Virus record (IMG/VR): IMGVR_UViG_3300030095_005052
Source of the DNA: an uncultured virus (IMG/VR IMGVR_UViG_3300030095_005052)
Lineage: Duplodnaviria > Heunggongvirae > Uroviricota > Caudoviricetes
Length of the DNA stretch: 20,000 nt
Direction: 5' to 3' (one strand)
Shown here: piece by piece, positions 1-14,611 of the stretch
How positions within the stretch are numbered: position 1 is the first letter of the stretch
Layout of the letters: each line of letters opens with the position of its first letter
The notes under the pieces: generated by a model
Told to the model about the DNA's origin: nothing
Database searches by the model: none
What the model saw: the letters and a program-made list of their open reading frames with translations, nothing else
Program-made: the position numbers and the translations under genes

Positions 1-951
1 ATCACCTGCGCTAGAATATTCACCACCACCCACATTTATTGGTGTATTTGGATCCATTGCGGCAAGGCTATTTATATTACTTTTCTCGCCATCTTGATAA
101 ACGTAGCCGCCAGGTGCATCAGTTGGAGCAGACATTAAACCATTTTGATAACTAATTTCTCCACCAGCACTATTGATATTAGGATCATTACCAAAATCGT
201 GGTAGGCTCCCGCGTTATTTAAAGCACCGCCAATTGTACCTAAAATACCTGCGCCTGGAATAACCATCGGAGCCATTGCTAAAGCCGCCGCCGCTGGCAA
301 TGCTTCCCTTGGAAACGCGTCATTTGTCGCCATAGTATACGCTGTACCCATTGGCCCACCTTTTATTGCATTCAATGCAAAGTCACCGACATTAGTTGCC
401 AAATCTCCAGCTTTACCTAATGAGAAACTATTATTATCTGGATTTTGTGTTGCGTCTGACATTTCTTTGCCGGTCAACACATTTAAATCTTCGTTAAGGC
501 CATAAAAATCTTTGTTAAAATTTGCTTCATTTCGGTTAAACCGATCCATAAACTCTGCTTTTCCATTATGTCTGGCGTCAAAGTTTGCCTCGTTTTTATC
601 GAAATCTGCTTTAAAATTAGGGTTTTGATAAAAATCCGTTGGACGATCATAATCTTCACCGCGCACCCCTGCGCCAGTTTGGGCTAGAGCTTGGAATACA
701 TCGTTATCAACAAAACTTGTATTGTTGTCGTCAAAATCTCCACCACGACCGCCATTGTCTATTATTCTTCTTGTAATAGGTGCGGGTTGCTCGACAATGT
801 TACCAGTAGAATCTGACGCGACAACTGGATTGTTTGTATTGCCGCGATAAACCCCCGCCGAATAATCTTGAGCAGGAAAAATGCGGCTGTAGGTAGGCTT
901 AGAATCAATAATATTTTGACGTGTTGTTCTCCACGCGTCTAGCAATCCCAT
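1..951 (-). CDS. Partial (runs off window) Gly/Asn/Asp-rich protein starting MGLLDAWR; putative virion/ejected protein downstream of portal
   Basis: Not in ORF track. ATG at 951 overlaps the portal stop (TAATG). Frame is open for 317 codons to position 1 (MGLLDAWRTTRQNIIDSKPTYSRIF...ALPAAAALAMAPMVIPGAGILGTIGGAL...). Function inferred only from position and composition. Confidence 0.8.
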   Translation of the reverse strand, partial: MGLLDAWRTTRQNIIDSKPTYSRIFPAQDYSAGVYRGNTNNPVVASDSTGNIVEQPAPITRRIIDNGGRGGDFDDNNTSFVDNDVFQALAQTGAGVRGEDYDRPTDFYQNPNFKADFDKNEANFDARHNGKAEFMDRFNRNEANFNKDFYGLNEDLNVLTGKEMSDATQNPDNNSFSLGKAGDLATNVGDFALNAIKGGPMGTAYTMATNDAFPREALPAAAALAMAPMVIPGAGILGTIGGALNNAGAYHDFGNDPNINSAGGEISYQNGLMSAPTDAPGGYVYQDGEKSNINSLAAMDPNTPINVGGGEYSSAGD

Positions 952-3122
952 TACTCTACCCTCTTATCATTTTCAATTGATTGATGTTCCAGTCTCTCTC
1001 TCGCCAAGCTCGCTTCAACTTCAAGTTTTGCACTACCGCTTTCAGCATCAGCGGCGATTTGTGCGGCTGTTTGTTCCATATCCGCAGAAATCTTCTCTCT
1101 TTCAATCGCAAGTTTTTGCTCCAGTTCCATAACTTTTAATTGCATTTCTTGCTGTTTAATTTCCATCTCAGCCTGTAACTCTTGCATCTTTTCACTATGG
1201 TCAATCTGCATTTCTTCACGTTTTATAATTAGCTTATCGTTTTCGATTTTCATCTGCGACTGCATAAACATTTCGTTTGCGTCTGGTTTTGGTGGCGGTA
1301 TGTCAGACCCGTCTGGGGCTGGTTGTGTAAAATATTTCTCTGCTTCAACCCCGCCTTCTTTAACTAAGTCAACGAGTGCAGAATAAACATTTTGACGCGA
1401 TACAATTGACCCACTGTCAAAACCCATATTTGCCGCAAGTTCTTTTTGAGCATTGAGGACATTTGTTAAAGCCGACACGCGCATTTCGTCGTTGCCATGA
1501 CCAAGACCAACCATAACCGTGACGTCGTATTCCGTATTCCAATTCCGTGGATCCATTGGCACCCATTGATTATTTAATCGGATTACGCGCTCTTGGTTTT
1601 GATGCATTGAAACGCATTTCAATATCTTTTTAAATAAATCTTTTACGCCACCATCAGCAAATAACCTCCCAATCATTTCGATACGCTGTTGCGACATATT
1701 GAGCATTAATTTTACGCCCGTCGCAGTTTGGTTTGGATTTAAAGAATCCTGATCAAGTCCCTGAGAATGTTTTGTAACGCCAGTGCGAACTTCTTTTATT
1801 TGATCTGCATATTCTAACGCCGATAATACATCTCCGCCTACCGGAGCGGCTGTCATTTCTCTGACCATGCCTGGCTGTTTGACGCGTACAATTCCTCCAG
1901 GGCGACTATTCAATAAGTCGTCCATATTACACATACCTTCCACCACTTCAGTCCGGTGGTTATTCTGTAAGTATATGTTGTCGAGTAAATTACGTAGTAA
2001 ACTTGTTTTTACATCTTGGATCATAAAAGTTTGATCTGCTATCGACATACCAAAAAATCGGTGTGGCATTGGTATGGGAACAATTGTTGAAAATGGCGGC
2101 TCTTCAACTTCTTCTTCATCTAAGATTAGATAACTGCCGGAACCACCAGCTAAGACGCGTATCCACTCCGCGATGCCGTCGCCGTTGCGGTCAGCTTTTA
2201 AATAACAATCATAAAGCCAAATCTCACGACGTGTTGGGTCATACGAATCTTCGCCTGTATGACTGCCACCAAAATCAGCGTCGTCAATTTGCTCTCGCAA
2301 TAATTTTTCAGTTGTAAAATCTTCTTCATCGAGTGTCGGTATTTGATCGACTAAACTTTGCTTATATCCGAGGGCAATTAAATCTGAGGCGGTGTAACGA
2401 GTTCGACTGGCGACAAAATTAGCTTCATCGAGAGTGCGCGCTTTCCGCTCTATGTAAAAATCTTCCGGTGCAACTGTCTCGACGACGCAACGTCCTTTTG
2501 TTTTTGTACGACGAATTTTTACTGAGTGTCCACTCGAATAAAGAGGTGTTGAAGCGGGAGCCACATCGCCGTCGAATAACCCCAGTTCGGCGGACATTTG
2601 CTCCTCATAGGAATGCTCAACCGCCTCAACCTCTGGATCAGCTAAAAGAAGTGTTACTTCTTCCATGCTCAAATTTTCATACGTCTCAGAAGTGACGTCT
2701 TTTTTATTTTCGTAATAAGTTTTAAAAATGCCAATGCCTGAGAGCAAAGCATCTTTAAAACCTTCGTGCAATAATTGCACTCCAGGGTTATCTTTTAAAA
2801 ATATATGATTTACATATTTGGTTGCTTGCTCGGCACTTGCCTCGTCTTCAGGGCCGACAGGCGCAAACTTTACAACTTCGCCGGAACCCGTGAAGGGTTT
2901 TAACAAACTTGGAAGCATTGATTCAACCGTATCCATAACATCAGACGATATTACAGCCGAGCGACCCTCAACTTCATTACCCATTGGATACGACAAATAA
3001 TATTCCAGAGCCTTTTCACGTCGACGCTGTAACTCACCGCCGTGATACCCCGCACTTGTGCGAATACCCTCGGCAATAAGTGACTTCAGTGTTTCTTTGG
3101 TAACCTTTTTACGTTTAGCCAT
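951..3122 (-). CDS. Phage portal protein (P22-like/podovirus type)
   Basis: 723 aa; motifs ALEYY...GRSAVISSDVMDTVESMLPSLL, PHRFFGMSIAD...Q..K..LLRNLLDN, EVRTGV, long C-terminal coiled-coil barrel; located downstream of terminase. Confidence 0.92.
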   Translation of the reverse strand: MAKRKKVTKETLKSLIAEGIRTSAGYHGGELQRRREKALEYYLSYPMGNEVEGRSAVISSDVMDTVESMLPSLLKPFTGSGEVVKFAPVGPEDEASAEQATKYVNHIFLKDNPGVQLLHEGFKDALLSGIGIFKTYYENKKDVTSETYENLSMEEVTLLLADPEVEAVEHSYEEQMSAELGLFDGDVAPASTPLYSSGHSVKIRRTKTKGRCVVETVAPEDFYIERKARTLDEANFVASRTRYTASDLIALGYKQSLVDQIPTLDEEDFTTEKLLREQIDDADFGGSHTGEDSYDPTRREIWLYDCYLKADRNGDGIAEWIRVLAGGSGSYLILDEEEVEEPPFSTIVPIPMPHRFFGMSIADQTFMIQDVKTSLLRNLLDNIYLQNNHRTEVVEGMCNMDDLLNSRPGGIVRVKQPGMVREMTAAPVGGDVLSALEYADQIKEVRTGVTKHSQGLDQDSLNPNQTATGVKLMLNMSQQRIEMIGRLFADGGVKDLFKKILKCVSMHQNQERVIRLNNQWVPMDPRNWNTEYDVTVMVGLGHGNDEMRVSALTNVLNAQKELAANMGFDSGSIVSRQNVYSALVDLVKEGGVEAEKYFTQPAPDGSDIPPPKPDANEMFMQSQMKIENDKLIIKREEMQIDHSEKMQELQAEMEIKQQEMQLKVMELEQKLAIEREKISADMEQTAAQIAADAESGSAKLEVEASLARERLEHQSIENDKRVE

Positions 3123-3347
3123 TTAACCTACTAACTGAGCCGCCGCTTTTGCCGCTTCTTTTGAGTAAGGGCCGTGATCGACAATATTTCCGTCATTGTC
3201 AGCCAACGCCCACTTTCCGAAATGTAAATGTTTAGGGGTTAATACTCCTACCACGCTTGAAGCATCTTTTTTTTCATCTAGACGCCGTTCAAGCGCGTCT
3301 ACTCTTTTCAACAATTCTTGGTATGCAACTTCTAATCTAATTGACAT
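3123..3347 (-). CDS. Hypothetical protein (74 aa), N-terminal coiled coil
   Basis: Abuts the portal start; AAGGA RBS upstream. Confidence 0.75.
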   Translation of the reverse strand: MSIRLEVAYQELLKRVDALERRLDEKKDASSVVGVLTPKHLHFGKWALADNDGNIVDHGPYSKEAAKAAAQLVG

Positions 3348-3374
3348 TTGGGGGTTCCTTTTTAGTTAAATTTT

Positions 3375-3383
3375 TGGTATAAT
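3375..3383 (+). promoter_or_regulatory. Extended -10 promoter (TGgTATAAT) for the 64-aa acidic ORF
   Basis: Perfect TGnTATAAT 25 bp upstream of ATG 3409; AGAGG RBS. Confidence 0.6.
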
Positions 3384-3408
3384 TTGGGTTCAAAAAAAGA
3401 GGTTTAAA

Positions 3409-3603
3409 ATGATTAAAACAACAGACGAATTAGACGCTTTTATTCAAGATGTGATAGTGCGTGTTTGGGACATCCACGAAATGGAAGCCTACGGTGGAGA
3501 GCCTGATTTTCCTATTCCATCCCATAAACCGGAAAGTCAAATTATGTTAGGTCAACTTACTGATTTAATTGAAGAGGCAATTGGTGTTACCGACGACGAT
3601 TAA
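3409..3603 (+). CDS. Small acidic hypothetical protein, candidate immunity/antitoxin
   Basis: 64 aa, D/E-rich, own RBS and promoter, convergent with and overlapping the 3' end of 3587..5173 by 17 bp. Confidence 0.65.
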   Translation: MIKTTDELDAFIQDVIVRVWDIHEMEAYGGEPDFPIPSHKPESQIMLGQLTDLIEEAIGVTDDD

Positions 3604-5173
3604 AACTATCAAGCAACCCTGATCTTAATATATTTTCCCGCTCTAACATTAAATTATCAACTTGCTCTGGCCCAAAAAACTGAGCCGCTCCTGGTTTGCC
3701 AGAGGCATCAAATAGTCCAGGTGATTTCCTCAATTCATAAACATCTTGTTTTATTGGTACACCCGCTTTTCGTCGTGCCTTTGACCAATCAGAAAACACA
3801 CTCGACATTGGTAACGGAACGTCAAAACCACCCATGTAATTTTGCGCCCCTACTGCACTTGGGTCACCCCCAAAAACAATGTCGTAGTCGTAAGTATTGT
3901 TAGGCGTTGGCAGTGAGCTTGTCGGCCTAATTGTAGCACCACCAGACATATCAATTACACTTTGACCCACCGATGGATCAGTGCTTCCCCTAATTAAATT
4001 CTTTAGATCAGGATCAGTAATTGCGTGTCTCAATTGTAAAACATCGGGGGCTGTATTTAATTTTCTGAAATCACTATTATCCATGACTTCCATTAACATT
4101 TTTCTAGTTGCTGGGTATCTACCAAAAAATTCATGGGCGTCGGGATGATTAATACCTGGAAACTTTTCAATTTTTGCGTCAGCTTGTTTTGTTACGTCGT
4201 TTACATTTTTTATACGCGACCGAATTTCTTTATTTAATCGCTGTTCAACTGTACTTGTAAAAGGTTTACTTACCTCTTTTACCCTAAAAAATAAGTCAAC
4301 TGTTTGCATGGAATAGTCGCCACCAGTGCCAGCGTATGGGGCAAAAACACCTACTGGTTTACCGCCAGCTTCTTCAATCTTTTTTACGTGACCCTTCATA
4401 GTTTGTAATGCGCTTAAAGCGGAACCCCAATCTCCAGTTCCTCCATGACGAGAATAATTTTTTCCAGCGTGCGCTGTAAGTGGTGTTAATAGACCTTGGC
4501 CCCCGACTGCATCAATAATTTGGTTGCCAGACCGATCTCCCGTTATAGGGAATACCGTTGTACCTTCTAAATCTTCGGGTGTAATAAATTTTCTTGGTGC
4601 AAGATTTGGGTTTGGTCTTATAATTAAACCTTCATCAAGACTTTTCAAATAATCTTCGTCAACTTTTAAATTTTTAGAATAAGGAGACGGTACACCGAGC
4701 TTTTGTCCTCTTTTACCCGTCGGAGCAACATTGCTTTCTAATGCGCCACGCGTTTCTAATTCTTTTTTTACATCCGGTAATAATTCACCCTTTTTATCTA
4801 CTCCAGCCCCAGCCGGAGAATATATAGTCGGGCCACCGTTGTGACCAATAGGTGGCGTATTTCTTAATCCCCTTTTTACACCTTCTCTTATACCAGCGAC
4901 TGTTCCTGGCACTGGTATCATTGCGATACCCGCACCCGCCATGCCTAACTTTGCAAGCGCATCTAAATAATCACCGCGACCAAATGCCTCACCGGATGCG
5001 CGGCTGTCGTTGACTATTCCTTTTATGTCAGCCTGTGGGCCGACTATATCTGCGCCACCTAATAAGCCAGTTTTCATTTGTTGATATGTCGGCACATTTA
5101 ACCCAAGGCGTCGACCAACATCAATAGGATCAGGGATACGATAACCGTATAATTTATCTAATAAACCCGCCAT
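3587..5173 (-). CDS. MAGLLD-leader protein (528 aa), putative virion-delivered effector with unknown C-terminal domain
   Basis: GAGG RBS; N-terminal MAGLLD; GRGDYLDALAKLGMAGAGIAMIPVPG segment reminiscent of pre-toxin hydrophobic linkers; C-terminal domain not recognised. Confidence 0.7.
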   Translation of the reverse strand: MAGLLDKLYGYRIPDPIDVGRRLGLNVPTYQQMKTGLLGGADIVGPQADIKGIVNDSRASGEAFGRGDYLDALAKLGMAGAGIAMIPVPGTVAGIREGVKRGLRNTPPIGHNGGPTIYSPAGAGVDKKGELLPDVKKELETRGALESNVAPTGKRGQKLGVPSPYSKNLKVDEDYLKSLDEGLIIRPNPNLAPRKFITPEDLEGTTVFPITGDRSGNQIIDAVGGQGLLTPLTAHAGKNYSRHGGTGDWGSALSALQTMKGHVKKIEEAGGKPVGVFAPYAGTGGDYSMQTVDLFFRVKEVSKPFTSTVEQRLNKEIRSRIKNVNDVTKQADAKIEKFPGINHPDAHEFFGRYPATRKMLMEVMDNSDFRKLNTAPDVLQLRHAITDPDLKNLIRGSTDPSVGQSVIDMSGGATIRPTSSLPTPNNTYDYDIVFGGDPSAVGAQNYMGGFDVPLPMSSVFSDWSKARRKAGVPIKQDVYELRKSPGLFDASGKPGAAQFFGPEQVDNLMLERENILRSGLLDSFNRRR

Positions 5174-5183
5174 GTAATCCTCA

Positions 5184-6626
5184 TTATATAAATGGTACGC
5201 CAGAGTTTATTTCTTGCTGGTACTTATTTTTATTTCTTTGTAATACTTTCACACGATCCAACACGTCTTGATCCCAAGTGACGTAGTTTCGGGTTCTACC
5301 GTCTACAATATCTATTGCACCCGGCTCATCTGCCCAATTTTGCAAGAGTTTTTTTGCTGATGTCTGATCGGATGTATCTAATTTTTGCAGTTCTTTTTTT
5401 GCAATATCTTTTGTAAGTTCATTGATTGCTTTTTTAAAATTGCCATCACTTAAAATTAAAAAATTTGATGCAATATTTTCATTTGCATACTTACCAATGT
5501 CTTCTCCCATAACAGTAACTTTTTTATCTCTACCTCTGCTTAGACCGTCAGAGTATCTATTGCCGGGAATGCCAGCCTTACGAAAAACCTCTGCCGCAAA
5601 ATCGCCACCCATAATAGAATCTATTGTACCCATTAACTGTTCGCCAGTGACATTTGGGCCAAACATTGCATCCCAATTACCGCCAAGGTCATCAAAAGCG
5701 TTTTCTGGCAATTGGTCTTTTATTTTTTCTAATGCGTTTTTTATATGTTGTGATTGCTCACTTAATGGCGCATCTAGGTCAATATATTTTGCAATATCTT
5801 CGTCTGGAATCTCTATTTTGTATAATTGTCCTTCTGGAACCTTATCATCTGGCCCCGCTTTTCTCATCAATTTTGGGTCAATTGATTGCAACAACCCAAT
5901 GTGATTATCAAGGTTTTGCACTTCAACGATATGCTGACTTCGACCTTCTCTTCCTTCCGCTTTAGCGAGTTCAACTAAATTATTTTTTCTTCTTAAAGTA
6001 CTGTTGATTTTATTTTGTATAACAACAGTAGGGTCTAAACTTTCGCTTATGGCTTCATTATATATATTATTTGCCATACCCTCTTGCGGTGTGAAATCTG
6101 TCCCCCTTCGAGTTGTTTCATTTATAGTCACGCCTCTAGGTATTGGCCTCCCACCATACGTCATTGTCGGTGCAATTGGACTTAACATTTCTTTATAAGA
6201 GTTTGCAACGACAGGCTCTTGCGCGGCATAAAAACCTTGCCCCTTTGCCGCATTACCCTCACCTGCTCCTATCTTATCCAAGCGAGGCCGTCCTTGTGGA
6301 AACCCTGGCTCGGCTTCCCATTTGTTAGGGCCACCGTGATAAAGATTCATTCCCACAGTCGATGAAGGTCGGGCTGGAGATAATAAGCTCGGCAAACTAA
6401 TCGTACCAGCCGCATCAAAGACACTTTTATAAGCTGGGTGAGTTACAGGTGCATTAGCTGGCAGTCTCATTGCCGTGCCTAAATTATCAAAACTTTTTGC
6501 CGCATCGATCAGCAGACCTGGGTAGGTCATTTGACCCCGTCCCGTTTTATCATAGCCGTAGGGATAAAAACTTCCCCTACTCACTATATTTGGGTCAGGT
6601 GCCATTAAATCTAATAAACCCGCCAT
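5184..6626 (-). CDS. MAGLLD-leader protein (480 aa) with ADP-ribosyltransferase-like (ART-PolyVal-type) domain
   Basis: LYHGGP...LDKIGAGEGNAAKGQGFYAAQEPVVANSY, GQLYKIEIPD, AGIPGNRYSDGLSRG and TRNYVTWD match the pattern of ART domains in phage polyvalent proteins, interrupted by insertions. Confidence 0.7.
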   Translation of the reverse strand: MAGLLDLMAPDPNIVSRGSFYPYGYDKTGRGQMTYPGLLIDAAKSFDNLGTAMRLPANAPVTHPAYKSVFDAAGTISLPSLLSPARPSSTVGMNLYHGGPNKWEAEPGFPQGRPRLDKIGAGEGNAAKGQGFYAAQEPVVANSYKEMLSPIAPTMTYGGRPIPRGVTINETTRRGTDFTPQEGMANNIYNEAISESLDPTVVIQNKINSTLRRKNNLVELAKAEGREGRSQHIVEVQNLDNHIGLLQSIDPKLMRKAGPDDKVPEGQLYKIEIPDEDIAKYIDLDAPLSEQSQHIKNALEKIKDQLPENAFDDLGGNWDAMFGPNVTGEQLMGTIDSIMGGDFAAEVFRKAGIPGNRYSDGLSRGRDKKVTVMGEDIGKYANENIASNFLILSDGNFKKAINELTKDIAKKELQKLDTSDQTSAKKLLQNWADEPGAIDIVDGRTRNYVTWDQDVLDRVKVLQRNKNKYQQEINSGVPFI

Positions 6627-6643
6627 AAAAACACCCTAAAAAT

Positions 6644-6700
6644 AATATCAATAAATATGATATTCGCTATTGACTAATTGTGACAAGTCACTATTATACT
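6644..6700. promoter_or_regulatory. Divergent promoter region with operator palindrome
   Basis: AATATCA-N7-TGATATT (6644-6664); leftward TTGTCA(6686-6681)-N18-TATCAT(6662-6657); rightward TTGACT(6670)-N16-TATTAT(6692). Confidence 0.6.
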
Positions 6701-6731
6701 CCTATAAACGAAACACTTAGGAGAGCGAATA

Positions 6732-7181
6732 ATGTTAGATCAAATAAATAAAGCCTTCGCAGAATTAGATGCTCAAATGCTTGAGCGTCAAACTGCTTGG
6801 GCATTGGAGCGTTGTGATGCTGTTAGGGCATTAGATCGCAAAACTTTTGATGGTGATCATTTAAGTTGGCGTCGAAAACAAATTGACTTGGCTGGTGGTG
6901 TTAAATGGCACAAACAAATTATGTATACCAGCCGCGCCATGCTTACAGAATATGTTGCAAAAAATGTTGCCGCTACAATCGACAGTCGTAACAGCAGAAT
7001 TATAACTGCCCTAAATAAAAAAGGTGTTACTGAAATTCCAGAATTTATTTTAAGCCACCACAGCGACGGTTATGAAGGCAGTTTTAAAGTAGCCGGACAC
7101 CTTGTAACAATCCTCACCGTTTTAGCTGGTGGTTACAACATTCAATGTCTTCACCAGCGCACAATTGTAAAAGTAAATTAA
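6732..7181 (+). CDS. Phage hypothetical protein (moron-like), C-terminal AGGYNIQCLHQR motif
   Basis: 149 aa, AGGAG RBS, own promoter, antisense to the late operon. Confidence 0.8.
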   Translation: MLDQINKAFAELDAQMLERQTAWALERCDAVRALDRKTFDGDHLSWRRKQIDLAGGVKWHKQIMYTSRAMLTEYVAKNVAATIDSRNSRIITALNKKGVTEIPEFILSHHSDGYEGSFKVAGHLVTILTVLAGGYNIQCLHQRTIVKVN

Positions 7182-7235
7182 TAAATGGGGGTTAACACCC
7201 CCGCCACCCCTTTAAACAAATAGGAGATCGACAAA

Positions 7236-7589
7236 ATGACTTCACCAACAGAACTCAAAATGACCTTACCAACAGAAATGATGGACGCTTGCCCTTTTGA
7301 TAATATTTTTGTTTGTTCTGATATTGATGAACAAACAAATGAAAAAATCTGGTTAATTAAAATTCCATTGATGAGGGGGTCAGATTGCCTCACTGTAAAT
7401 AAAAAATTTACATCACGTTTTAGCGCAGAAATTTGGGGTGCCAAAAATTTAACTGTTCAAGCACTTGTAACTTTTGTTCTTGAATCAAATGATTTTCAAG
7501 AACGAATTTTTAACTGTTGGCCCCCTTTTGAAGACGATCGTGGGATTGATTTAGACGTTTTGCTTTGTTCCTCCAGAATAGACACTTAA
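7236..7589 (+). CDS. Hypothetical protein (117 aa), second gene of moron
   Basis: AGGAG RBS upstream; same strand as 6732..7181. Confidence 0.7.
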   Translation: MTSPTELKMTLPTEMMDACPFDNIFVCSDIDEQTNEKIWLIKIPLMRGSDCLTVNKKFTSRFSAEIWGAKNLTVQALVTFVLESNDFQERIFNCWPPFEDDRGIDLDVLLCSSRIDT

Positions 7590-7605
7590 TAATAATCAAC
7601 CAAAA

Positions 7606-7633
7606 TAACCCCCCTCACTCAATTGGGGGGTTA
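7606..7633. terminator. Hairpin, probable bidirectional terminator
   Basis: TAACCCCCC-N10-GGGGGGTTA between convergent genes, AT-rich flanks. Confidence 0.55.
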
Positions 7634-7740
7634 ATAATTTTAACCTTACATCTTTTACAAACTAAGACCCTGTCCTCAGTGCCAACGTCAATTTTATGCC
7701 ACATAAAATAACAATAAATACTGCAACAAAAATTAGACAA
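7615..7740 (-). CDS. Possible small Cys/His (Zn-binding) peptide, 41 aa
   Basis: TTG start overlapping the terL end; SIYCYFMWHK...CKRCK pattern; weak RBS. Confidence 0.35.
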   Translation of the reverse strand: MSNFCCSIYCYFMWHKIDVGTEDRVLVCKRCKVKIINPPIE

Positions 7741-9052
7741 ATTGGTTACTGTTTGGGTAATCCAATTTAGACTTCCACGGCTTACGGTATGCACCAAACG
7801 ACGCCATGCCTTCACGGTATCCGACACAAAGATAACGCATTGCATCGGCAAAATGCGAGTTATCGTCATGTAGAGGTAAACCAGACGTCTCTTTAACGCG
7901 ATAATTTTTTAATGCCTTCAACAAGTCATGGCAATGAGTAGAGCTAATCCAAACACGAGGTAGTAAAGCGCGTACTGCTTCAATCCCTTCGGCAACTTTT
8001 CGCATAGGGACAATGGTAGGATTGATACCAAGTTGACGGAGTATGTCAGAGCGGCGTTGTGCAGTTGCCCCAAGTATTCTGGTATCCGTGTCGTGAGGAA
8101 ATAAATGATCACCATAACTATACCCTTTATCAAATGCTCGTTGTTGCAATACCTGGACGTAGTGTGCGAGACCCTCACCGGATGCCTGATAATCGTCAAC
8201 GATCCTTATTTGTGATCCAGACGTCTCTTGCCAAAATATAACCGTTGTCTTGTCTCGGACACCTAAATCCCAGCTTGTGTTTACAAGTAAATTTTCGTCG
8301 TGTGGTACGTTTCCGATGCGCTCTTCATGCTCGGCTTTAGCGAGTTGCTCGGCGTAGTACGCGCCCGTGATTGAGGCCGTCCAGTCGCACTCCATTTCCT
8401 GACGATATATATTATCGGATAACTGCTCTTTCAGTTCGTCGAGTTCTTCCTGCGGCAGTACATTCGTCTTACTCGCTGGGAATAAACAGGCAAACCACTT
8501 TGAGTTTCCGGCGTCCATTTCGGCCTTTGCTTGATCGTAGATGGCCTTAAATGCGTCGTCGCCCTTTGGCGTCCCTATCCATAAAACTTTGCCCTGGCGG
8601 TCTGCAATAGCTGGCCTAACGATGGACGGAAACACCTTTGCGCTGATGTCTGCATACTCATCAAAAATTACGGCGTCTAAAAATAAGCCTCGGATTTGTT
8701 CCGACGAATCATTAGAGCCTGATAGTAGATGTATTGTAATCCGCCCAGTCGGGTGGGGTATTTCGACCCTGAGTTTAGCGGCGTTATATTTAACCCCTGG
8801 GAACATCTCTGTAGCGTCTTTTACGTACTGAAATGCGACCTTCTCAGCCTGACTAAAGGTTGGTGCTATATAAGCCCCCTGCGGGTTCTTGTGGGGGCAT
8901 TCAAACAGCGATCTAACGAGCCAGTGTATCGCCATATACGTCTTGCCAAAACGACGATGCATGACGCAAACATTATAGCGCGTGGCGTTGTCGTGGAATT
9001 TCTTTTGTAGCGGCCTCGGTGTATAGGGGACGATTATTTTTTTAGGGGGCAT
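7733..9052 (-). CDS. terL: Terminase large subunit
   Basis: PYTPRPLQ, Walker A HRRFGKT, Walker B VIFDEY, IGTPKG, nuclease motifs SWDLG and SHFADAMRY. Confidence 0.95.
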   Translation of the reverse strand: MPPKKIIVPYTPRPLQKKFHDNATRYNVCVMHRRFGKTYMAIHWLVRSLFECPHKNPQGAYIAPTFSQAEKVAFQYVKDATEMFPGVKYNAAKLRVEIPHPTGRITIHLLSGSNDSSEQIRGLFLDAVIFDEYADISAKVFPSIVRPAIADRQGKVLWIGTPKGDDAFKAIYDQAKAEMDAGNSKWFACLFPASKTNVLPQEELDELKEQLSDNIYRQEMECDWTASITGAYYAEQLAKAEHEERIGNVPHDENLLVNTSWDLGVRDKTTVIFWQETSGSQIRIVDDYQASGEGLAHYVQVLQQRAFDKGYSYGDHLFPHDTDTRILGATAQRRSDILRQLGINPTIVPMRKVAEGIEAVRALLPRVWISSTHCHDLLKALKNYRVKETSGLPLHDDNSHFADAMRYLCVGYREGMASFGAYRKPWKSKLDYPNSNQFV

Positions 9053-9063
9053 ATGGCACCAAT

Positions 9064-9165
9064 TTACTTACCCTTTTTTTTACCCATAATTTTTTTTACA
9101 CCCTTTTTATTTTTTTTGGGTGGGCGTCCTACATTTTTTCCGTATGTTCCTTTTCCTTGTGGCAT
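9064..9165 (-). CDS. 33-aa highly basic peptide with AT-hook-like GRPPK motif
   Basis: Not in ORF track: MPQGKGTYGKNVGRPPKKNKKGVKKIMGKKKGK; GAAAGGA RBS; ends 11 bp before terL. Confidence 0.75.
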   Translation of the reverse strand: MPQGKGTYGKNVGRPPKKNKKGVKKIMGKKKGK

Positions 9166-9224
9166 TTATTTTCCTTTCCGAAAATTTGTGTGTTCTGCCT
9201 GTTTGTATCCTACCATCATCATCG

Positions 9225-9386
9225 CCGAGCCGTGGCCCCAGGGCGGTGCGGCCTCGGATAAAGGGGGGTGCCTTTTTGTCGCATAATGTACAGTATGGTA
9301 TATAGGTTTTTGTTTGTTATCAATGACTTAACATTTATTGGAGTATTATTGACGTTATTTTATGCTAAAAACACAAGATGTTGTGT
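9225..9386. other. Non-coding terS-terL spacer, candidate packaging/terminus region
   Basis: GC-rich hairpin 9225-9257, G6 run, IHF-consensus TATCAATGACTTA (9318-9330), palindrome ACACAA-GATG-TTGTGT (9371-9386). Confidence 0.4.
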
Positions 9387-9409
9387 CTAACATCTGCCCG
9401 ATCCAACGC

Positions 9410-9883
9410 TCAGTTAAGGCTAGATTTCCCTGATTTCGCGCGCGAAACTTGCGTTTGACGTCCGTCAAATGCGGGTTCATTTGCCACGCTCTCACTATCA
9501 TCAGCCCAAGCAATTGTGTAGCTTCCTATCGTACCTTTGACTTCGACTGATTGTTTACTTTCAGCTTTTAATACTGGTATTAACTTCTCAGCTTTCCATC
9601 GATAATGATTTAACATCTTGTCAGCTTTGATTACTTCGTCTCTCGTCGTTGCTACTCGGATCAACGTCTCGCTCTCTTGCAGTAACGTCTCAACATTCTG
9701 TATCAATGCTTGTTTGTAATCTTCAGCTAGTTCTTTATCAGCTTGACGCCATCGCCAGAAATTACTTTGATCTGGGAAACCATCGCGACCATTACAAATA
9801 TCCTTTAGAAATTCTCCGTCACCAAACCTCAAAAGGATTTGCTTGCAGATTTCCGCATTTTTCTTAGCCAACGTAATCTCCAT
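9410..9883 (-). CDS. terS: Terminase small subunit (Sf6 gp1-like)
   Basis: ICKQILLRFGDGEFLKDICN...PDQSNFWRW....ELAEDYKQA HTH pattern, RWKAEKL.P motif; upstream of terL. Confidence 0.85.
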   Translation of the reverse strand: MEITLAKKNAEICKQILLRFGDGEFLKDICNGRDGFPDQSNFWRWRQADKELAEDYKQALIQNVETLLQESETLIRVATTRDEVIKADKMLNHYRWKAEKLIPVLKAESKQSVEVKGTIGSYTIAWADDSESVANEPAFDGRQTQVSRAKSGKSSLN

Positions 9884-9917
9884 AAAAAAATCCTCGGTCT
9901 AATTTTAGACACAAGGA
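9884..9917 (-). terminator. Terminator-like hairpin + U7 containing the terS RBS
   Basis: Minus strand TCCTTG-T-GTCTA-AAAT-TAGAC-CGAGGA-TTTTTTT-ATG. Confidence 0.55.
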
Positions 9918-9999
9918 TACACGCAATATTTTAAAGGAATACCGGACTATGTCTACTTATCATTCAACAAATATTAGTTCGCAAAATAACATATTGTTT

Positions 10000-10408
10000 T
10001 TATTCATATAATTTTATTATGTCCTCGAATTTAGTGTAGTCCATGTGGTCACCATCAACGATGCAGTTGATTACATGGTTTAAATCACGATACCCAAACC
10101 GCCTCATTATTNNNNNNNNNNAAATACTTCCGCACATAAGCTGGCTCATCAACCTCATCAACAAAGTTAGATCGACCATTTGGAACGTCGATAGATTTGT
10201 AATCCAATATCTTTACCGATACATCACTTCTCAAATACGAGACAGCTTTTCGTATCTCCATGACCGCATCTTCTAAAACATTGTTTAAAAGATTATCTTC
10301 AACCCATTTTTGTATTATATCCTGACGTACTTTTGCCAGCGTCTGCTGAGTTGCAAACTGCCAGTCTTTTGACTGCTCACTAACATCAATATAATCTTCG
10401 TCACTCAC
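10000..10408 (-). CDS. Hypothetical protein spanning an assembly gap; positional candidate for late-gene regulator
   Basis: ORF from 10408 meets the N run (10112-10121); past the gap another frame continues IMRRFGYRDLNHVINCIVDGDHMDYTKFEDIIKLYE* to 10000. Confidence 0.55.
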
Positions 10409-10992
10409 TTAAATTGCCTCAAAAAATTATGCGAGTTTACTTGCTCAACAGGCTCGACTTCGTAAGGGCAATTTTTAAGGTTACAGGGCATTGTCTGAAT
10501 GTTTGGACGTCCATGTCCCTTACGACCATAAGTGCTAATACTGCACGTCTCACAACGTCCAGTGACGTGTAAATTACGAGACATTCGCCTTATTGTTTCC
10601 CAATCCTCCTCATACATTGCTATCGACATATTTCTTAAATATGTTTTGACTAAATCAAACTTATCTAGCGTCGATAATTTCTTTGTTAGCAATCCAATCT
10701 GACTTCTGAACCTCGTCAAAAGTGTCACTGCATTTCGTTCTCGTTCCTGCATAACAGTAATGTTTGTGTTGCTCTCACTGAAATGTAAATGGTCGATAAA
10801 CTCAGCTAACTTATTTTCGTCTCCGCAGATTTTATTCAGCAACCTTTTATTTTTTCTCAATAGCTTTTTAGTCGTCGACAACTCTTTTGATAGCCTTTGA
10901 TTATTTAATGTTTGATCGAGCAACTTACCTTCAAGATCACGTATCTCCTTTTCGTATTCCTGCCGCACATTATACATATAATTTTCACTCAA
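10405..10992 (-). CDS. Hypothetical protein, N-terminal coiled coil, C-terminal CxxC...CxxxxC
   Basis: 195 aa, 4-bp overlaps with both neighbours. Confidence 0.75.
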   Translation of the reverse strand: MSENYMYNVRQEYEKEIRDLEGKLLDQTLNNQRLSKELSTTKKLLRKNKRLLNKICGDENKLAEFIDHLHFSESNTNITVMQERERNAVTLLTRFRSQIGLLTKKLSTLDKFDLVKTYLRNMSIAMYEEDWETIRRMSRNLHVTGRCETCSISTYGRKGHGRPNIQTMPCNLKNCPYEVEPVEQVNSHNFLRQFK

Positions 10993-11561
10993 AACGGAAT
11001 CTCCTGATCTTTTAATTTTCCTTTAACCTCGGATAACTTACTGCCAGGCATTTCATCTTTGCAGTACGCCAGAACTCGAAACTTATTTTCAAATGCCTCG
11101 ACACATCGTGCCGCCTCATCCAAACAATACGTCTTAATTCCTTCACCCTCTGGACTCGTTGCAAACTGATAGGCATCTTCCCACGTCTCAAACAAACAAT
11201 ACGCAATACCGTCCGTCCTCCAGCTTGCCAGTGGATTAGGGTCGAGTGGCTTGTGACCTTGCCTCTCTGCTTCCCGATCCAAAGCCGCCCAAGCCTTGAC
11301 CATACTCGCTGAGTGCTTTTCAACCGCAAATTCATCATCATTATCAATAGCACGATCTAATTTTGCCGCTGTAATACCAAACTTCTGAGCCATCGCAGTA
11401 CCGACTAGTTTTGGTAGACGATCTATCCCCCACTTCATCTCCATCTTCCGAGCAATTTCATCTGCTGGACGAAGTGAATAATACTTCGCCATCTTTTCGA
11501 TGACACTGACATCTTGCGGGTTCGTTAATCGATCAGGTTTTATCATTTTACGATATTTCAT
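10989..11561 (-). CDS. Conserved-looking phage hypothetical (KWGIDRLPKLV motif)
   Basis: 190 aa, GGAG RBS, coupled to the downstream gene, ends DQEIPF. Confidence 0.8.
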   Translation of the reverse strand: MKYRKMIKPDRLTNPQDVSVIEKMAKYYSLRPADEIARKMEMKWGIDRLPKLVGTAMAQKFGITAAKLDRAIDNDDEFAVEKHSASMVKAWAALDREAERQGHKPLDPNPLASWRTDGIAYCLFETWEDAYQFATSPEGEGIKTYCLDEAARCVEAFENKFRVLAYCKDEMPGSKLSEVKGKLKDQEIPF

Positions 11562-11587
11562 CTCACCATCTCCCTACTTAAAAAATC

Positions 11588-11751
11588 GTTCTCCCGTGTT
11601 CTCCCGTGGCTAAAAACATAAGCACATTTGCGCCAGTTGTGCGCCAGTCTGAATCTGGCGCGCCAGTGTATGTTTTTACTTAGGGAGAAAAGTAGACTGG
11701 CGCAGACATTTTGCGCCATTCGTGCGCCAGTTGAAAAACGAGACTGGCGCA
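11588..11751. repeat. Cluster of TGCGCCAG(T) direct/inverted repeats; candidate replication origin
   Basis: TGCGCCAGT at 11629, 11640, 11723; inverse ACTGGCGCA at 11696, 11743; palindrome CTGGCGCGCCAG 11655-11666; variant at 11712; GTTCTCCCGT x2 at 11588-11607; directly downstream of the primase-helicase. Confidence 0.7.
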
Positions 11752-11763
11752 ACTTATTTCTGC

Positions 11764-13938: not shown

Positions 13939-13942
13939 AATT

Positions 13943-13968
13943 AAAAGGGAGAGGTGTTACCCCCTCCC
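13943..13968 (-). terminator. Intrinsic terminator between SSB-like gene and primase
   Basis: Minus strand GGGAGGGG-GTAACA-CCTCTCCC-TTTT. Confidence 0.6.
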
Positions 13969-13975
13969 GACTTAG

Positions 13976-14551
13976 TTAATCCCAGTCTTCGACTGCATCG
14001 TCGCTTGATGCTTTCGCAGGGGCTGGTGCAGGGGCTGGTGTAGCGGTAAGTTCATCGAACTCCTTTGGACGGTCACCCCACTTGGTAATCTTTAACTCCG
14101 GCGCATAATTCGTGCCGTGTTTGGAATCAACGGGGTTAACTTTCACGCACTCAACCAAAGGTAACTTCCCAGCTTTTCCTTCGTCACTTTTTAGATACTC
14201 ATCATAAAGAGTATTCATCTCATTATTGACGGCTCCGGCAGTTGACGAAAATTCTCTCAACCCGCCAATTTTTGGGCTGAAGACATTGAGTAAAAATCCG
14301 CGCTTAAAGTTACCTTCACCGACGGCGTCACCCGCACCGACTTCAGTATCAAATATTTTCTCTGGAGCTTGCCCAGCTTCAAACTTAAAAATACCAGTTT
14401 GAATGTTTTTAAAATCAAAATACGCCTTAAACTTTTCGATCTCATACTCGTCGCCACTATCGTCTTTTGTATACCAGCGACCAGCTTTTGCATTGTACTT
14501 ACAATAAGTGACAAAATCTCCGCCGCCACCAGTTGGTAATCCTAATCCCAT
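13976..14551 (-). CDS. Putative single-stranded DNA-binding/annealing protein
   Basis: 191 aa between exonuclease and primase; aromatic-rich beta-type core, Pro/Ala linker, acidic C-terminal tail (DDAVEDWD); GAGG RBS. Confidence 0.6.
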   Translation of the reverse strand: MGLGLPTGGGGDFVTYCKYNAKAGRWYTKDDSGDEYEIEKFKAYFDFKNIQTGIFKFEAGQAPEKIFDTEVGAGDAVGEGNFKRGFLLNVFSPKIGGLREFSSTAGAVNNEMNTLYDEYLKSDEGKAGKLPLVECVKVNPVDSKHGTNYAPELKITKWGDRPKEFDELTATPAPAPAPAKASSDDAVEDWD

Positions 14552-14611
14552 TTCTATTTCCTCTTCACTACTTACAAATTAGTCCGCACTTAACCCAGCG
14601 AACCTTTGGGG

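What the first reader, a model, noticed from the sequence alone, without database searches (positions are those of the whole stretch)
1..6626. Three large head-module proteins share an N-terminal M(A)GLLD leader: candidate capsid-loading tag for a variable effector system
Seen: 5184..6626 starts MAGLLDLM, 3587..5173 starts MAGLLDKL, and the unlisted ORF after the portal (951->1) starts MGLLDAW. Beyond this they show no obvious similarity. GLL-x also recurs inside the 528-aa protein (TGLLGG, QGLLTP, SGLLDS at its C-terminus). Known: T4 internal proteins use a short N-terminal capsid-targeting sequence, and MuF proteins encoded near portal genes carry variable toxin domains. No MuF domain is recognisable here. 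Inference: GLLD is a short sorting signal that loads interchangeable cargo proteins (ART, unknown enzyme) into the head for injection, i.e. a MuF-independent phage polymorphic-effector system.
Basis: partly seen in the sequence, partly recalled or inferred. Interest (0 to 1): 0.85.

Follow-up and report, generated by a model that had tools for sequence, protein, structure and literature searches.

The report
Shared leader on swappable phage proteins
Three unrelated proteins encoded beside a phage's portal gene start with the same few amino acids, the front end of reusable N-terminal modules that carry interchangeable enzyme domains; they are probably packed into the head and injected, but packing has not been shown.

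Summary
In a temperate SU10-type podophage head module (terS, terL, P0005, P0004, a 74-aa protein, portal, P0001), three proteins with no detectable similarity to one another start with M(A)GLLD. Such starts occur in 15 of 1301 called genes, against 0.42 expected.

"Interchangeable cargo" holds. A phage with a 98% identical backbone keeps the first ~100-140 residues of both upstream proteins and swaps the rest. The P0004 N-module (about 100 aa) heads 80 protein clusters carrying ART-PolyVal, LPD23, GNAT or unknown C-termini. The P0005 core also occurs inside giant polyvalent proteins, and its fold matches proteins annotated ART-PolyVal-like. No MuF domain is present.

"GLLD is the sorting signal" is not shown. 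GLLD is the lineage-specific tip of larger modules. Other lineages use other shared leaders, such as M[AV]DYFT or a ~20-aa MAGLLDRVxPSKAY leader on three neighbouring proteins. GLL[DG] also ends many of these proteins and lies in the scaffold's conserved N-terminal motif. Leaders within one genome are near-identical in DNA, and no virion data exist.

Best reading: a MuF-like but MuF-free polymorphic effector set whose N-terminal element mediates head incorporation (about 45%).

The parts
5184..6626 (-). P0005, 480 aa. N-module A (residues 1 to about 88, starting MAGLLD) plus a polyvalent-type ART-like core (89-480).
   Evidence: Translation. 353 homologues. The N-terminal alignment shows a conserved xGLL[DS]..DPN[IV]xxRGxxLPxGR..FAxPGLLVDA pattern. 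The AF2 model has pLDDT 78. BFVD Foldseek top hits are annotated 'ART-PolyVal-like domain-containing protein', E 6e-15.
6609..6626 (-). Leader codons for MAGLLD of P0005.
   Evidence: Identical 18 nt to the start of P0004. An AGGG ribosome-binding-like motif lies upstream.
3587..5173 (-). P0004, 528 aa. N-module B (residues 1 to about 110) plus a core of unknown function.
   Evidence: Translation. 8 homologues. No Pfam or PHROG match. The AF2 model is unusable, pLDDT 35.
4844..5173 (-). N-module B of P0004 (MAGLLD .. GPQADIKGIV .. GDYLDALAKLGMAGAGIAMIPVPGTVAG), the unit kept when the cargo is swapped.
   Evidence: phmmer against 1.84e9 representatives finds 80 clusters. In 79 of the 80 the best stretch lies within about the first 150 residues; P0193 matches at 453-497. 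97% identity to L013 up to codon ~102, then no similarity.
3608..3619 (-). C-terminal GLLD of P0004 (residues 519-522).
   Evidence: It is conserved as GLL[DGN] or GVLE in homologues P0127, P0129 and P0130.
3123..3347 (-). P0003, a 74-aa protein directly upstream of the portal gene.
   Evidence: Homologues sit in the same place in L007, L008 and L179. It lies inside the 98% identical backbone block whatever the cargo. It is absent from HTVC106P, where terL abuts the portal gene.
951..3122 (-). Portal protein, 723 aa.
   Evidence: Pfam PF23899 SU10_portal, E 1e-203; PHROG 1216.
1..951 (-). P0001, the post-portal protein (cut by the window edge; 442-471 aa in full copies). It starts MGLLD and has a hydrophobic Gly/Ala-rich segment.
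   Evidence: The full length is seen in L004:2303-3631. Its start overlaps the portal stop. The best 19-residue hydropathy window scores 1.74. L007 and L008 orthologues start MGLLDPW.
937..951 (-). Leader codons for MGLLD of P0001 (ATG GGA TTG CTA GAC).
   Evidence: The codons differ from those of P0004 and P0005.
7733..9052 (-). Terminase large subunit, the upstream border of the cargo slot.
   Evidence: Pfam Terminase_6N, E 2e-11.
9410..9883 (-). Terminase small subunit.
   Evidence: Pfam Sf6_terminase, E 3e-11.
6732..7181 (+). Opposite-strand ORF of 149 aa between terL and P0005. The slot is variable.
   Evidence: No Pfam match. In L013 it is replaced by an unrelated 160-aa ORF, alongside a different P0005 variant.

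Best explanation
The window holds the head module of a temperate SU10-type podophage. Into it are inserted three accessory genes, two between terL and the portal gene and one right after the portal gene. Each encodes an N-terminal module followed by a variable body. P0005 carries a polyvalent-type, ART-like enzyme core. P0004 carries a core of unknown function. P0001 is a low-complexity, partly hydrophobic protein.

The shared M(A)GLLD is the first turn of a short N-terminal helix that caps these modules. I propose that this leader, together with the module behind it, is the element by which the proteins are co-assembled into the procapsid. Binding could be to the scaffold, the portal or the inner shell, possibly at the site used by the scaffold's own conserved N-terminal G-L-[LM]-[DG]-acidic motif. 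The proteins would then be ejected with the DNA as early-acting effectors, as T4 Alt and MuF-fused toxins are.

Shown here: the leader is non-random and conserved at protein level; non-homologous neighbours share it in several lineages; the N-modules are kept while C-termini are swapped; the C-termini come from the polyvalent effector repertoire; and the genes sit in the late structural operon.

Inferred: presence in virions, the binding partner, injection, and which part of the module is the signal.
For: The module is SU10-type: portal PF23899, MCP PF17236 and adaptor PF24175.

The accessory genes are dispensable. Pelagibacter phage HTVC106P, with the same type of portal (38% identity), has terL directly before the portal gene and no post-portal gene.

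Leader statistics: 15 of 1301 genes against 0.42 expected. 13 of 18 distinct N-terminus-sharing gene pairs are these cargo genes. Codons vary between lineages.

Independent lineages have at least two non-homologous neighbours sharing a leader:
- L014: MGGLLD and MPGLLD.
- L017: MSGLLD and MAGLLD.
- L008: MPRGLLD (from an internal Met of the called ORF) and MGLLD.
- L021: the ART-core protein MHGLLGDG (internal Met) and its neighbour MGLLES.
- L178/L179: three consecutive proteins between terL and the portal gene share about 20 aa, MAGLL[DN].V.PSKAY. In one of them this leader is placed in front of the usual MADFF.. start.
- Cultured Microcystis phage MJing1: MSGLLDD and ..AVAGLLDD.

Module kept, cargo swapped. 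The P0004 N-module heads 80 clusters. Of 29 scanned, 8 match ART-PolyVal (4 above Pfam's cutoff), 2 match LPD23, 3 match GNAT, 1 matches DUF7178, 1 matches L5 gp82 and 14 match nothing.

The P0005 core occurs in 57 small and 22 giant (at least 1000 aa) proteins. In all 26 small-form loci that also hold an SU10-type portal, the core gene is on the portal's strand, and the portal is the next called gene downstream in 14.

N-module-B genes always lie in structural modules, at a fixed syntenic position, with lengths from 216 to 533 aa.

Fold: BFVD gives 18 hits with E up to 0.001, the top two annotated ART-PolyVal-like. The best solved-structure match is an ejection protein of the cyanophage A4 pre-ejectosome (9k3a_B, Z 8.6, 155 aligned), followed by the diphtheria toxin catalytic domain (Z 7.8).

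Scaffold motif: 28 of 76 unique scaffolds have G[LIM][LIM][DGNSE] in the first 60 aa, against 72 of 1180 other proteins. The window lineage reads ..ALEGLLDFGDEPEQ.

Published precedent that phages of the portal-terminase class package such effector domains is a prediction of Iyer et al. 2017 (PMC5512222, passages read).
Against: There is no virion proteomics or structure for any protein with this leader; searches of cultured phages found few relatives and no paper with such data.

The leader is not universal. The same N-modules start with other sequences in other lineages. In 79 loci chosen by portal alone, 0 of 99 genes at -1/-2 and 2 of 51 at +1 carry it. Most of the 13 hits there belong to a family of ~160-aa proteins encoded upstream of terS (8 members).

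GLL[DG] is not confined to N-termini. 9 of 61 proteins with the ART-like core end in GLL within their last 6 residues, against 5 of 1218 others. Several cargo proteins end in ..GLLG plus an acidic tail. So a free N-terminus is not what is recognised, or more than one thing is going on.

Within a genome the leader DNA is identical or 85-90% identical. Gene conversion or recent duplication alone would also produce this.

Exact identity between the cargo leader and the scaffold motif (GLLD) is limited to the window clade; elsewhere only an LL core is shared.

The usual podophage ejection proteins are encoded in the tail end of the module in the related Pa223 (bioRxiv 10.1101/2025.06.11.659172, passages read), so these proteins are extras, not the core ejectosome.
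Confidence: 0.45

Rival explanations
1. The N-terminal modules act after ejection, not in packaging. They would be membrane-active or oligomerising elements that place or translocate the attached domain at the host envelope, like the hydrophobic segments of podophage ejection proteins. On this view GLLD is merely the conserved first helix of that element, and incorporation into heads is determined elsewhere or is passive.
For: Hydrophobic Gly/Ala-rich segments lie in or after the modules. P0001 has AALAMAPMVIPGAGILGTI (hydropathy 1.74) and P0004 has LDALAKLGMAGAGIAMIPV (1.43). This segment (GDYxxALxNxGMAAAAxPMMALPGTV) is among the best conserved parts of N-module B. It aligns weakly to the post-portal protein (E 0.025). 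Many family members end in hydrophobic G/A-rich tails followed by acidic residues. The best solved-structure match of the P0005 core is a pre-ejectosome protein.
Against: P0005's own N-module has no strongly hydrophobic stretch (best window 0.72), yet it carries the same leader. This view does not explain why the extreme N-terminus, rather than the hydrophobic segment, is what unrelated neighbours share, nor why it is prepended to an already complete module in L178.
Confidence: 0.25
2. The shared start is kept mainly at DNA level. A short identical junction (stop/start TAATG plus 18-70 nt) at the 5' ends of neighbouring cassette genes would be homogenised by gene conversion and would serve as a recombination site for shuffling, duplicating or deleting cargo cassettes. 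The encoded peptide would have no specific function.
For: P0004 and P0005 share 18 identical nucleotides, including all synonymous positions. The three L179 leaders are about 85-90% identical over 45-70 nt, and similarity starts exactly at TAATG. Mosaic breakpoints flank the N-modules.
Against: P0001 encodes GLLD with entirely different codons in the same genome. Across lineages all four Gly codons and five to six Leu codons are used while the peptide is kept. The motif also recurs at C-termini and in the scaffold, where no cassette junction exists. The swap breakpoints lie after the ~100-140-aa modules, not after the leader.
Confidence: 0.15
3. The proteins are late-expressed host-takeover or anti-defence enzymes that act inside the producing cell and are never packaged. 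The shared N-terminus would then serve another common need, such as stability, localisation at the assembly site, or co-translational control.
For: Nothing here shows presence in virions. Position in a late operon only shows timing.
Against: The domain repertoire (ART-PolyVal, LPD23, and a core embedded in giant polyvalent proteins) is the one predicted to be delivered with the DNA (PMC5512222). The genes keep tight linkage and translational coupling to portal and terminase genes across lineages. An enzyme acting late in the producer has no evident need for the position next to the portal gene.
Confidence: 0.1

Closest known systems
MuF polymorphic toxins of temperate phages (Jamet et al. 2017, PMC5576092; search listing and abstract start seen)
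   Same: A conserved N-terminal module is fused to variable C-terminal effector domains. The genes lie next to the portal gene of temperate phages, and delivery through the virion is presumed.
   Different: No MuF domain is present (Pfam). The two N-modules here (A about 88 aa, B about 110 aa) match no Pfam family. Several such proteins occur per phage, all sharing one extreme N-terminal leader. No cognate immunity gene follows: the downstream 74-aa gene is constant whatever the cargo.
Polyvalent proteins of phages and conjugative elements (Iyer et al. 2017, PMC5512222; passages read)
   Same: The domain repertoire is the same: ART-PolyVal, LPD23, GNAT and DUF7178 sit behind N-module B. The P0005 core itself sits inside 22 giant proteins of 1000-4600 aa. 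BFVD neighbours are annotated ART-PolyVal-like or 'large polyvalent protein associated domain'.
   Different: Here the domains are dealt out one per protein, each behind its own small N-terminal module, instead of being strung in one giant polypeptide with peptidase domains.
T4 capsid-targeting sequence on internal proteins and Alt (recalled knowledge; Alt packaging is also stated in PMC5512222)
   Same: A short N-terminal element is shared by otherwise unrelated head-internal proteins, one of them an ADP-ribosyltransferase.
   Different: T4's signal is removed by the prohead protease. No protease domain was found among the 10 ORFs downstream of the portal gene, and no cleavage motif is evident. 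There is no sequence relationship, and packaging is untested here.
Encapsulin cargo-loading peptides (recalled knowledge, not tested here)
   Same: Short Gly/Leu-rich peptides at either terminus of unrelated cargo proteins dock on the inside of an HK97-fold shell. Here GLL[DG] sits at N-termini, at extreme C-termini and in the scaffold.
   Different: No binding evidence exists here. The phage motif is embedded in larger modules.
Podophage ejection proteins (T7 gp14-16; Pa223 gp53/54/56, bioRxiv 10.1101/2025.06.11.659172; cyanophage A4 gp26-29, PMC12002296)
   Same: They are internal virion proteins that associate with the portal through N-terminal parts: in A4 the N-terminal helices of gp29 intercalate into the portal barrel. 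The P0005 core gives its best solved-structure match to an A4 pre-ejectosome chain.
   Different: Those are core, conserved proteins encoded at the tail end of the module. The proteins here are dispensable, swappable extras flanking the portal gene, and Z 8.6 is only marginally above background.

Membership tests
MuF / SPP1 gp7 minor head protein family (Pfam Phage_Mu_F) | Presence of the MuF domain | tested here: not met
   hmmscan of P0001, P0004 and P0005 against Pfam-A at E up to 0.1 returned no family. PHROGs also returned none.
ART-PolyVal (Pfam PF18760) | Match to the family profile above the gathering score | tested here: not met
   P0005 has no Pfam hit at E up to 0.1. Some homologues carry a separate PF18760 domain C-terminal to the shared core.
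ART-PolyVal (Pfam PF18760) | ADP-ribosyltransferase fold and H-Y-[ED]-type motifs in the P0005 core | tested here: inconclusive
   The BFVD Foldseek top hits are annotated ART-PolyVal-like (E 6e-15 and 6e-13), and a 'PolyVal ADP-ribosyltransferase' scores E 0.012 with TMt 0.62. VIA-align gives the diphtheria toxin catalytic domain Z 7.8, rmsd 3.5, 124 aligned. hhalign against three PF18760 domains aligns the HGG..GxGFY..Y motifs with probability 1%, E 0.04. Foldseek against PDB finds nothing at E up to 0.001.
Polyvalent proteins (Iyer et al. 2017) | Domains of the polyvalent repertoire, encoded with a portal-terminase packaging module | tested here: met
   The core is embedded in 22 giant multi-domain proteins. 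ART-PolyVal, LPD23 and GNAT lie behind N-module B. Position between terL and the portal gene.
Polyvalent proteins (Iyer et al. 2017) | Two to fifteen effector domains in one polypeptide | tested here: not met
   P0005 and P0004 each show one N-module plus one core. Some relatives add a second domain.
Polymorphic toxin systems | Conserved N-terminal part and variable C-terminal part among close relatives | tested here: met
   Mosaic with L013. P0131 and P0132 against P0004. 80 clusters with diverse C-termini.
Polymorphic toxin systems | A cognate immunity gene that co-varies with the toxin domain | tested here: inconclusive
   The downstream 74-aa gene does not co-vary. An opposite-strand ORF upstream of P0005 does differ between the two variants compared (149 aa against an unrelated 160 aa), but n = 2 and neither has a family match.
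T4-type capsid-targeting sequence | N-terminal signal removed by a prohead protease | tested here: not met
   No protease family was found among the 10 ORFs following the portal gene in L004 or among the window proteins scanned. Cleavage itself is not testable with these tools.
T4-type capsid-targeting sequence | The signal is necessary and sufficient for encapsidation | not testable with these tools
   This needs virion proteomics and reporter fusions.
SU10-type podophage head module | SU10-family portal, major capsid protein and adaptor | tested here: met
   PF23899, E 1e-203. PF17236, E 7e-100, and PF24175, E 4e-29, in the full-length sister contig L004.

The most novel reading that the evidence does not exclude
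SU10-type podophages load cargo by short terminal peptides of the type small-hydrophobic-hydrophobic-acidic (GLLD here; DYFT/DFFT, VFDK elsewhere). These peptides would copy the scaffold protein's own conserved N-terminal G-L-[LM]-[DG]-acidic motif and so dock at the scaffold's binding site in the procapsid. That would be an encapsulin-like, programmable cargo-loading code in a true phage. It can sit at either end of a protein, evolves in concert within each genome, and lets any enzyme domain be turned into an injected effector.
Probability: 0.2. Interest if true: 0.85.

Novelty: new variant of a known kind. Interest (0 to 1): 0.62.

Why it matters
How tailed phages without a T4-like core or a MuF adaptor get accessory proteins into the head is poorly understood. 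For P22-like and T7-like podophages, even the incorporation route of the ejection proteins is unclear.

This system offers a concrete, testable handle. It has a short leader and two small N-terminal modules, neither matched by any Pfam or PHROG family. Unrelated proteins of one phage share them. They are retained while enzyme domains (ART-like, GNAT, LPD23, unknown) are exchanged between phages with near-identical backbones. They recur from marine proteobacterial phages to a cultured Microcystis phage.

If the leader or module is a packaging signal, three things follow. It would define a third route of effector delivery besides MuF fusions and giant polyvalent proteins. It would flag dozens of uncharacterised C-terminal domains as candidate injected effectors. 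It could also be used to load foreign proteins into phage heads.

If it is not a packaging signal, the concerted evolution of the leaders and the precise domain swaps remain a clear example of cassette exchange inside a structural operon.

Tried and rejected
- **Chance.** Rejected.
- **A purely DNA-level signal.** Rejected as the sole cause of the cross-lineage conservation, because the codons differ. It is kept as a within-genome contributor.
- **Co-folding.** One complex-prediction job was run with the portal (alignment A3) and P0005 residues 1-60 (alignment A2). The verdict was 'no answer', score 0.00, with the partner's own fold uncertain. This counts neither for nor against binding. A portal monomer may also be the wrong target.
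- **P0004 function.** The AF2 model on a 6-row alignment has pLDDT 35 and is unusable. The ESM Atlas gave no hit above 0.79 by features or TM 0.30 by structure. Pfam and PHROGs gave nothing.
- **P0005 against solved structures.** Foldseek against PDB found nothing at E up to 0.001. A profile search of PDB sequences found only a spurious E 0.11.
- **Whole genome.** None is held for this window.
- **Genome contigs.** The single-protein scan found no relative. The family-alignment scan found 3 short MAG contigs, so the host was not identified.
- **Cultured phages.** P0005 matched only Methanosarcina virus MetMV. P0004 matched C72C1 and one metagenomic record. The L008-type cargo matched CRP-901 and MJing1. 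N-module-B proteins P0147 and P0151 matched nothing. Searches for MJing1, CRP-901 and C72C1 listed a genomics paper on CRP-901 (not read) and otherwise only unrelated papers, so no virion-proteomics evidence was seen.
- **Earlier findings of this scan.** Nothing on record.
- **A 43-sequence N-module alignment (A5).** It was too diverse for a locus scan. An 11-sequence alignment (A6) worked.
- **T4-like processing.** No prohead protease was found.
- **Core ejection proteins.** Reading the three proteins as the phage's core ejection proteins is set aside. Relatives lack them entirely, and in Pa223 the ejection genes lie elsewhere.


Full report
**What is in the window**

The minus strand of bases 1-9883 is the front of a phage late operon. 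In order it holds:
- terS (9410-9883, Sf6-type) and terL (7733-9052);
- P0005 (5184-6626, 480 aa);
- P0004 (3587-5173, 528 aa);
- a 74-aa protein, P0003 (3123-3347);
- the portal (951-3122, Pfam SU10_portal, E 1e-203);
- P0001, cut by the window edge.

Two short ORFs on the opposite strand lie between terL and P0005. A sister contig with a 100% identical portal (L004) continues the module: the full post-portal protein (442 aa), an 87-aa protein, an acidic scaffold (363 aa), an SU10-type major capsid protein and an SU10-type adaptor. No protease domain appears. From the translations alone, the rest of the window looks like a replication and lysogeny region ending in an integrase-like ORF. I did not annotate that part with tools.

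The three proteins begin MAGLLDLM, MAGLLDKL and MGLLDAW. BLASTP finds nothing significant between them.

Across 169 loci, 15 of 1301 unique 5'-complete called genes start M.{0,1}GLLD, against 0.42 expected. GLL[DSNEG] lies within the first ten residues in 33, against 5.6 expected. Several of these are copies of the window's own lineage.

A motif-blind comparison of all 8869 within-locus gene pairs finds 35 pairs that share at least 4 of the 5 residues after Met. Of the 18 distinct pairs, 13 are these cargo genes. One further pair (L033) is an ART-core protein and its neighbour sharing a different leader, M[AV]DYFT.

P0004 and P0005 share an identical 18-nt start. P0001 uses other codons. Between lineages every Gly codon and five or six Leu codons are used. 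Ribosome-binding-like AGG/GAGG motifs precede many of the leader ATGs.

**What the proteins are**

*P0005.* It has 353 homologues. They share a conserved N-terminal region of about 88 aa, which I call N-module A. Its pattern is xGLL[DS], DPN[IV]xxRGxxLPxGR, FAxPGLLVDAxKS, then GLLG. Behind it lies a strongly conserved core with invariant H97, G98, Y133, Y144 and other residues.

Pfam does not match P0005. Some relatives add ART-PolyVal or GNAT domains at the C-terminus.

The AF2 model (pLDDT 78) shows a helix at residues 2-8, three short strands, two helices, a disordered linker at 72-90, and then the core. Fold searches give mixed results:
- Foldseek against PDB finds nothing.
- Against viral predicted structures there are 18 hits at E up to 0.001. 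The top two are annotated ART-PolyVal-like, and several are 'large polyvalent protein associated domain' proteins.
- VIA-align's best solved match is a chain of the cyanophage A4 pre-ejectosome (Z 8.6, rmsd 4.2, 155 aligned). The diphtheria toxin catalytic domain scores Z 7.8. These scores are close to the tool's background.
- hhalign to three PF18760 domains lines up the HGG / GxGFY / Y motifs, but with probability 1%.

So 'ART-like, polyvalent-type core' is a fair label and 'ART' is unproven.

In 79 loci with this core, 57 hold small forms and 22 hold giant proteins of 1000-4600 aa. In all 26 small-form loci that also hold an SU10-type portal, the core gene is on the portal's strand. The portal is the next called gene downstream in 14, two or three steps downstream in 8, and upstream in 4.

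*P0004.* It has only 8 homologues of similar length, and no fold could be obtained. Its first ~110 residues are a second unit, N-module B. Its landmarks are GPQADIxGMV, then GDYxxALxNxGMAAAAxPMMALPGTV.

phmmer with these residues against 1.84 billion representatives finds 80 clusters of 49-1067 aa (most 200-720). The match lies within about the first 150 residues in all but P0193, where it is internal. Of 29 scanned with Pfam:
- 8 match ART-PolyVal (4 above the curated cutoff);
- 2 match LPD23 (both above the cutoff);
- 3 match GNAT families (1 above a cutoff);
- 1 matches DUF7178 and 1 matches L5 gp82-like (both below the cutoff);
- 14 match nothing.

None has a Pfam match over the module itself.

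In 30 further viral loci the module-B gene always lies on the structural-gene strand. In one lineage it sits at a fixed position behind the MCP and a 497-aa protein, with lengths from 216 to 533 aa.

*P0001.* Its orthologues (L004, L007, L008) keep the MGLLD start and are otherwise low-complexity. They carry a hydrophobic Gly/Ala-rich segment (hydropathy 1.74). In L004 and L008 the C-terminal ~100 aa form a conserved region, which in L004 also matches proteins of phage HMO-2011 and a Synechococcus phage.

**Cargo swapping**

Compared with L013 (portal block 98% identical in DNA), the window is a mosaic:

| Window region | Identity to L013 |
|---|---|
| terS/terL | 96.8% |
| Upstream region plus first ~141 codons of P0005 | 92.7% |
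| Rest of P0005 | Unrelated except for a 68-nt patch |
| Last 37 codons of P0005, the gap, and first ~102 codons of P0004 | 97.4% |
| Rest of P0004 | No similarity |
| P0003, portal and start of P0001 | 98.2% |

The replacement behind the P0004 module is the cargo type also found in L008, L007, Roseobacter phage CRP-901 gp68 and Microcystis phage MJing1. This is the conserved-N, variable-C pattern of polymorphic toxin families, but without MuF.

**The leader is larger and more varied than GLLD**

Within a phage, unrelated neighbours share the same extreme N-terminus. Between phages it differs.
- L014 has MGGLLD and MPGLLD.
- L017 has MSGLLD and MAGLLD.
- L021 has MHGLLGDG (the ART-core protein, from an internal Met) and its neighbour MGLLES.
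- L178/L179 has three consecutive proteins between terL and the portal gene that share about 20 aa, MAGLL[DN].V.PSKAY... In the first, this leader is set in front of an otherwise complete MADFF... module B. The three coding stretches are about 85-90% identical from the TAATG junction onward.
- In another lineage both cargo families start MP[NI]R[MT]SDNL instead.
- MJing1 has two adjacent post-portal proteins with GLLD at residues 3 and 13.
- C72C1's P0004 homologue starts MANGLLE and matches the module-A profile (E 5e-5). Its post-portal protein has RRGLLDEPVPGLLDF near the C-terminus.

GLL[DG] also marks C-termini. 9 of 61 proteins with the ART-like core end in GLL within the last six residues, against 5 of 1218 others. 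The L008-type cargo ends in ..GLLG plus an acidic tail.

In 79 loci chosen by portal similarity alone, only 13 of 549 genes carried the leader. None of the 99 genes at -1/-2 had it, and 2 of 51 at +1 did. Most of the 13 belong to a family of ~160-aa proteins (MSGLLEPS...) encoded upstream of terS; the same search over all loci puts 8 proteins in that family. The feature therefore belongs to a subset of lineages that carry these accessory genes. HTVC106P has none of them.

**A lead on the partner**

The scaffold proteins of this whole phage group have a conserved N-terminal motif, roughly AAxA[FIL]xG[LM][LM][GD] followed by an acidic tract. The window clade reads ALEGLLDFGDEPEQ. Pa223 gp66 reads AAEAFGDLLGDD. 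HTVC106P reads KSIEGLMDTKG.

28 of 76 unique scaffolds have G[LIM][LIM][DGNSE] in their first 60 residues, against 72 of 1180 other proteins. Because the scaffolds are homologous, this is one conserved element, not many independent events. Exact identity with the cargo leader is limited to the window clade.

It suggests, but does not show, that cargo leaders use the site that the scaffold's N-terminus uses.

**Mechanism and rivals**

I consider it most likely (about 0.45) that the leader plus module mediates incorporation of swappable effector proteins into the procapsid, followed by ejection.

The rivals are:
- a post-ejection membrane or oligomerisation role of the modules (0.25);
- maintenance of the leader mainly as a DNA junction for cassette exchange (0.15);
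- late enzymes that are never packaged (0.1).

Chance is excluded.

**Comparison with what is known**

The system works like MuF polymorphic toxins (PMC5576092, abstract seen) and draws on the polyvalent-protein domain set (PMC5512222, passages read). The shared short leader recalls T4's capsid-targeting sequence, and its placement at either terminus recalls encapsulin loading peptides; both comparisons are from recalled knowledge.

It is not a member of the MuF family, and no protease for T4-type processing was found. I found no Pfam or PHROG family for either N-module. My literature searches did not target this leader or these modules, and none of the listed papers I read describes them. I did not search for the motif string itself.

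**Verdict**

This is a real and recurrent feature. 'GLLD as the sorting tag' remains a hypothesis, and the functional unit is probably larger.

Noticed in passing
window 6732-7181 (+) and 7236-7589 (+); L013:7413-7895 (-): Two opposite-strand ORFs (149 and 117 aa) sit between terL and P0005. In L013 the 149-aa ORF is replaced by an unrelated 160-aa ORF, and the P0005 variant differs too, while the 117-aa ORF is kept. This is a possible moron or immunity slot. None has a family match.
   Followed up: partly
L004:3838-4929 and 76 other scaffold genes (e.g. L140:7386-8366, L010:5670-6668, L171:14972-15964): The scaffolding proteins of SU10-portal podophages share a conserved N-terminal motif, AAxA[FIL]xG[LM][LM][GD], followed by an acidic tract. 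In the window clade it contains the same GLLD as the cargo leaders.
   Followed up: partly
L017:468-1754, L032:8001-9167, L048:827-2095, L034:5619-7220, L046:4184-6316 and others: Many proteins with the ART-like core end exactly in ..GLLGN, ..GLLD or ..GLLE. Another cargo type ends in a hydrophobic Gly/Ala stretch, then GLLG, then an acidic tail (L008:6132-7631, MJing1 L170:5476-6990).
   Followed up: partly
L065, L072, L076, L053, L079/L081, L055/L056 (giant ORFs listed): The giant polyvalent proteins that contain the P0005 core begin with other short repeated hydrophobic-hydrophobic-acidic motifs (FFDPF/FYDPF, NPYD[DA]I, FDF[ED]AFSG, NHNPFE). These may be analogous N-terminal signals.
   Followed up: no
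L136:4105-4575, L162:447-917, L138:2200-2700 and relatives: A family of ~157-aa proteins starting MSGLLEPSVKIEIEIQ, with a good ribosome-binding motif, is encoded upstream of terS in another clade. It lies next to 546-778-aa proteins that end ..GLLDEEKRKEI.SLLE. No Pfam or PHROG match.
   Followed up: partly
window 3123-3347 (-); L179:5907-6149; L007:2539-2817; L008:7555-8001: A small protein of about 74-81 aa (MSIRLEV..., ending ..GPYSKEAA.KAA) lies directly upstream of the portal gene wherever the cargo genes are present, and is constant when the cargo changes. It could be an assembly adaptor or chaperone. No family match.
   Followed up: partly
L033:1066-2313 and L033:2631-3803: An ART-core protein and its 391-aa neighbour share a different leader (MADYFT / MVDYFT). 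This resembles the MADFFTR/MADYFTK start of many N-module-B proteins.
   Followed up: no
window about 10090-10120: Translations across this stretch show XXXX, so the window holds a short run of N inside ORFs of the early or replication region.
   Followed up: no
window 9900-20000: From the translations alone, the rest of the window looks like a replication and lysogeny region: a 724-aa primase/helicase-like ORF (11764-13938), a RuvC-like ORF and a nuclease-like ORF, an HTH repressor-like ORF (16897-17265), a methyltransferase-like ORF (18391-18957) and an integrase-like ORF running off the end (19494-20000). GC content drops to 30-33% at 16-17 kb and 19-20 kb. Not checked with family searches.
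   Followed up: no
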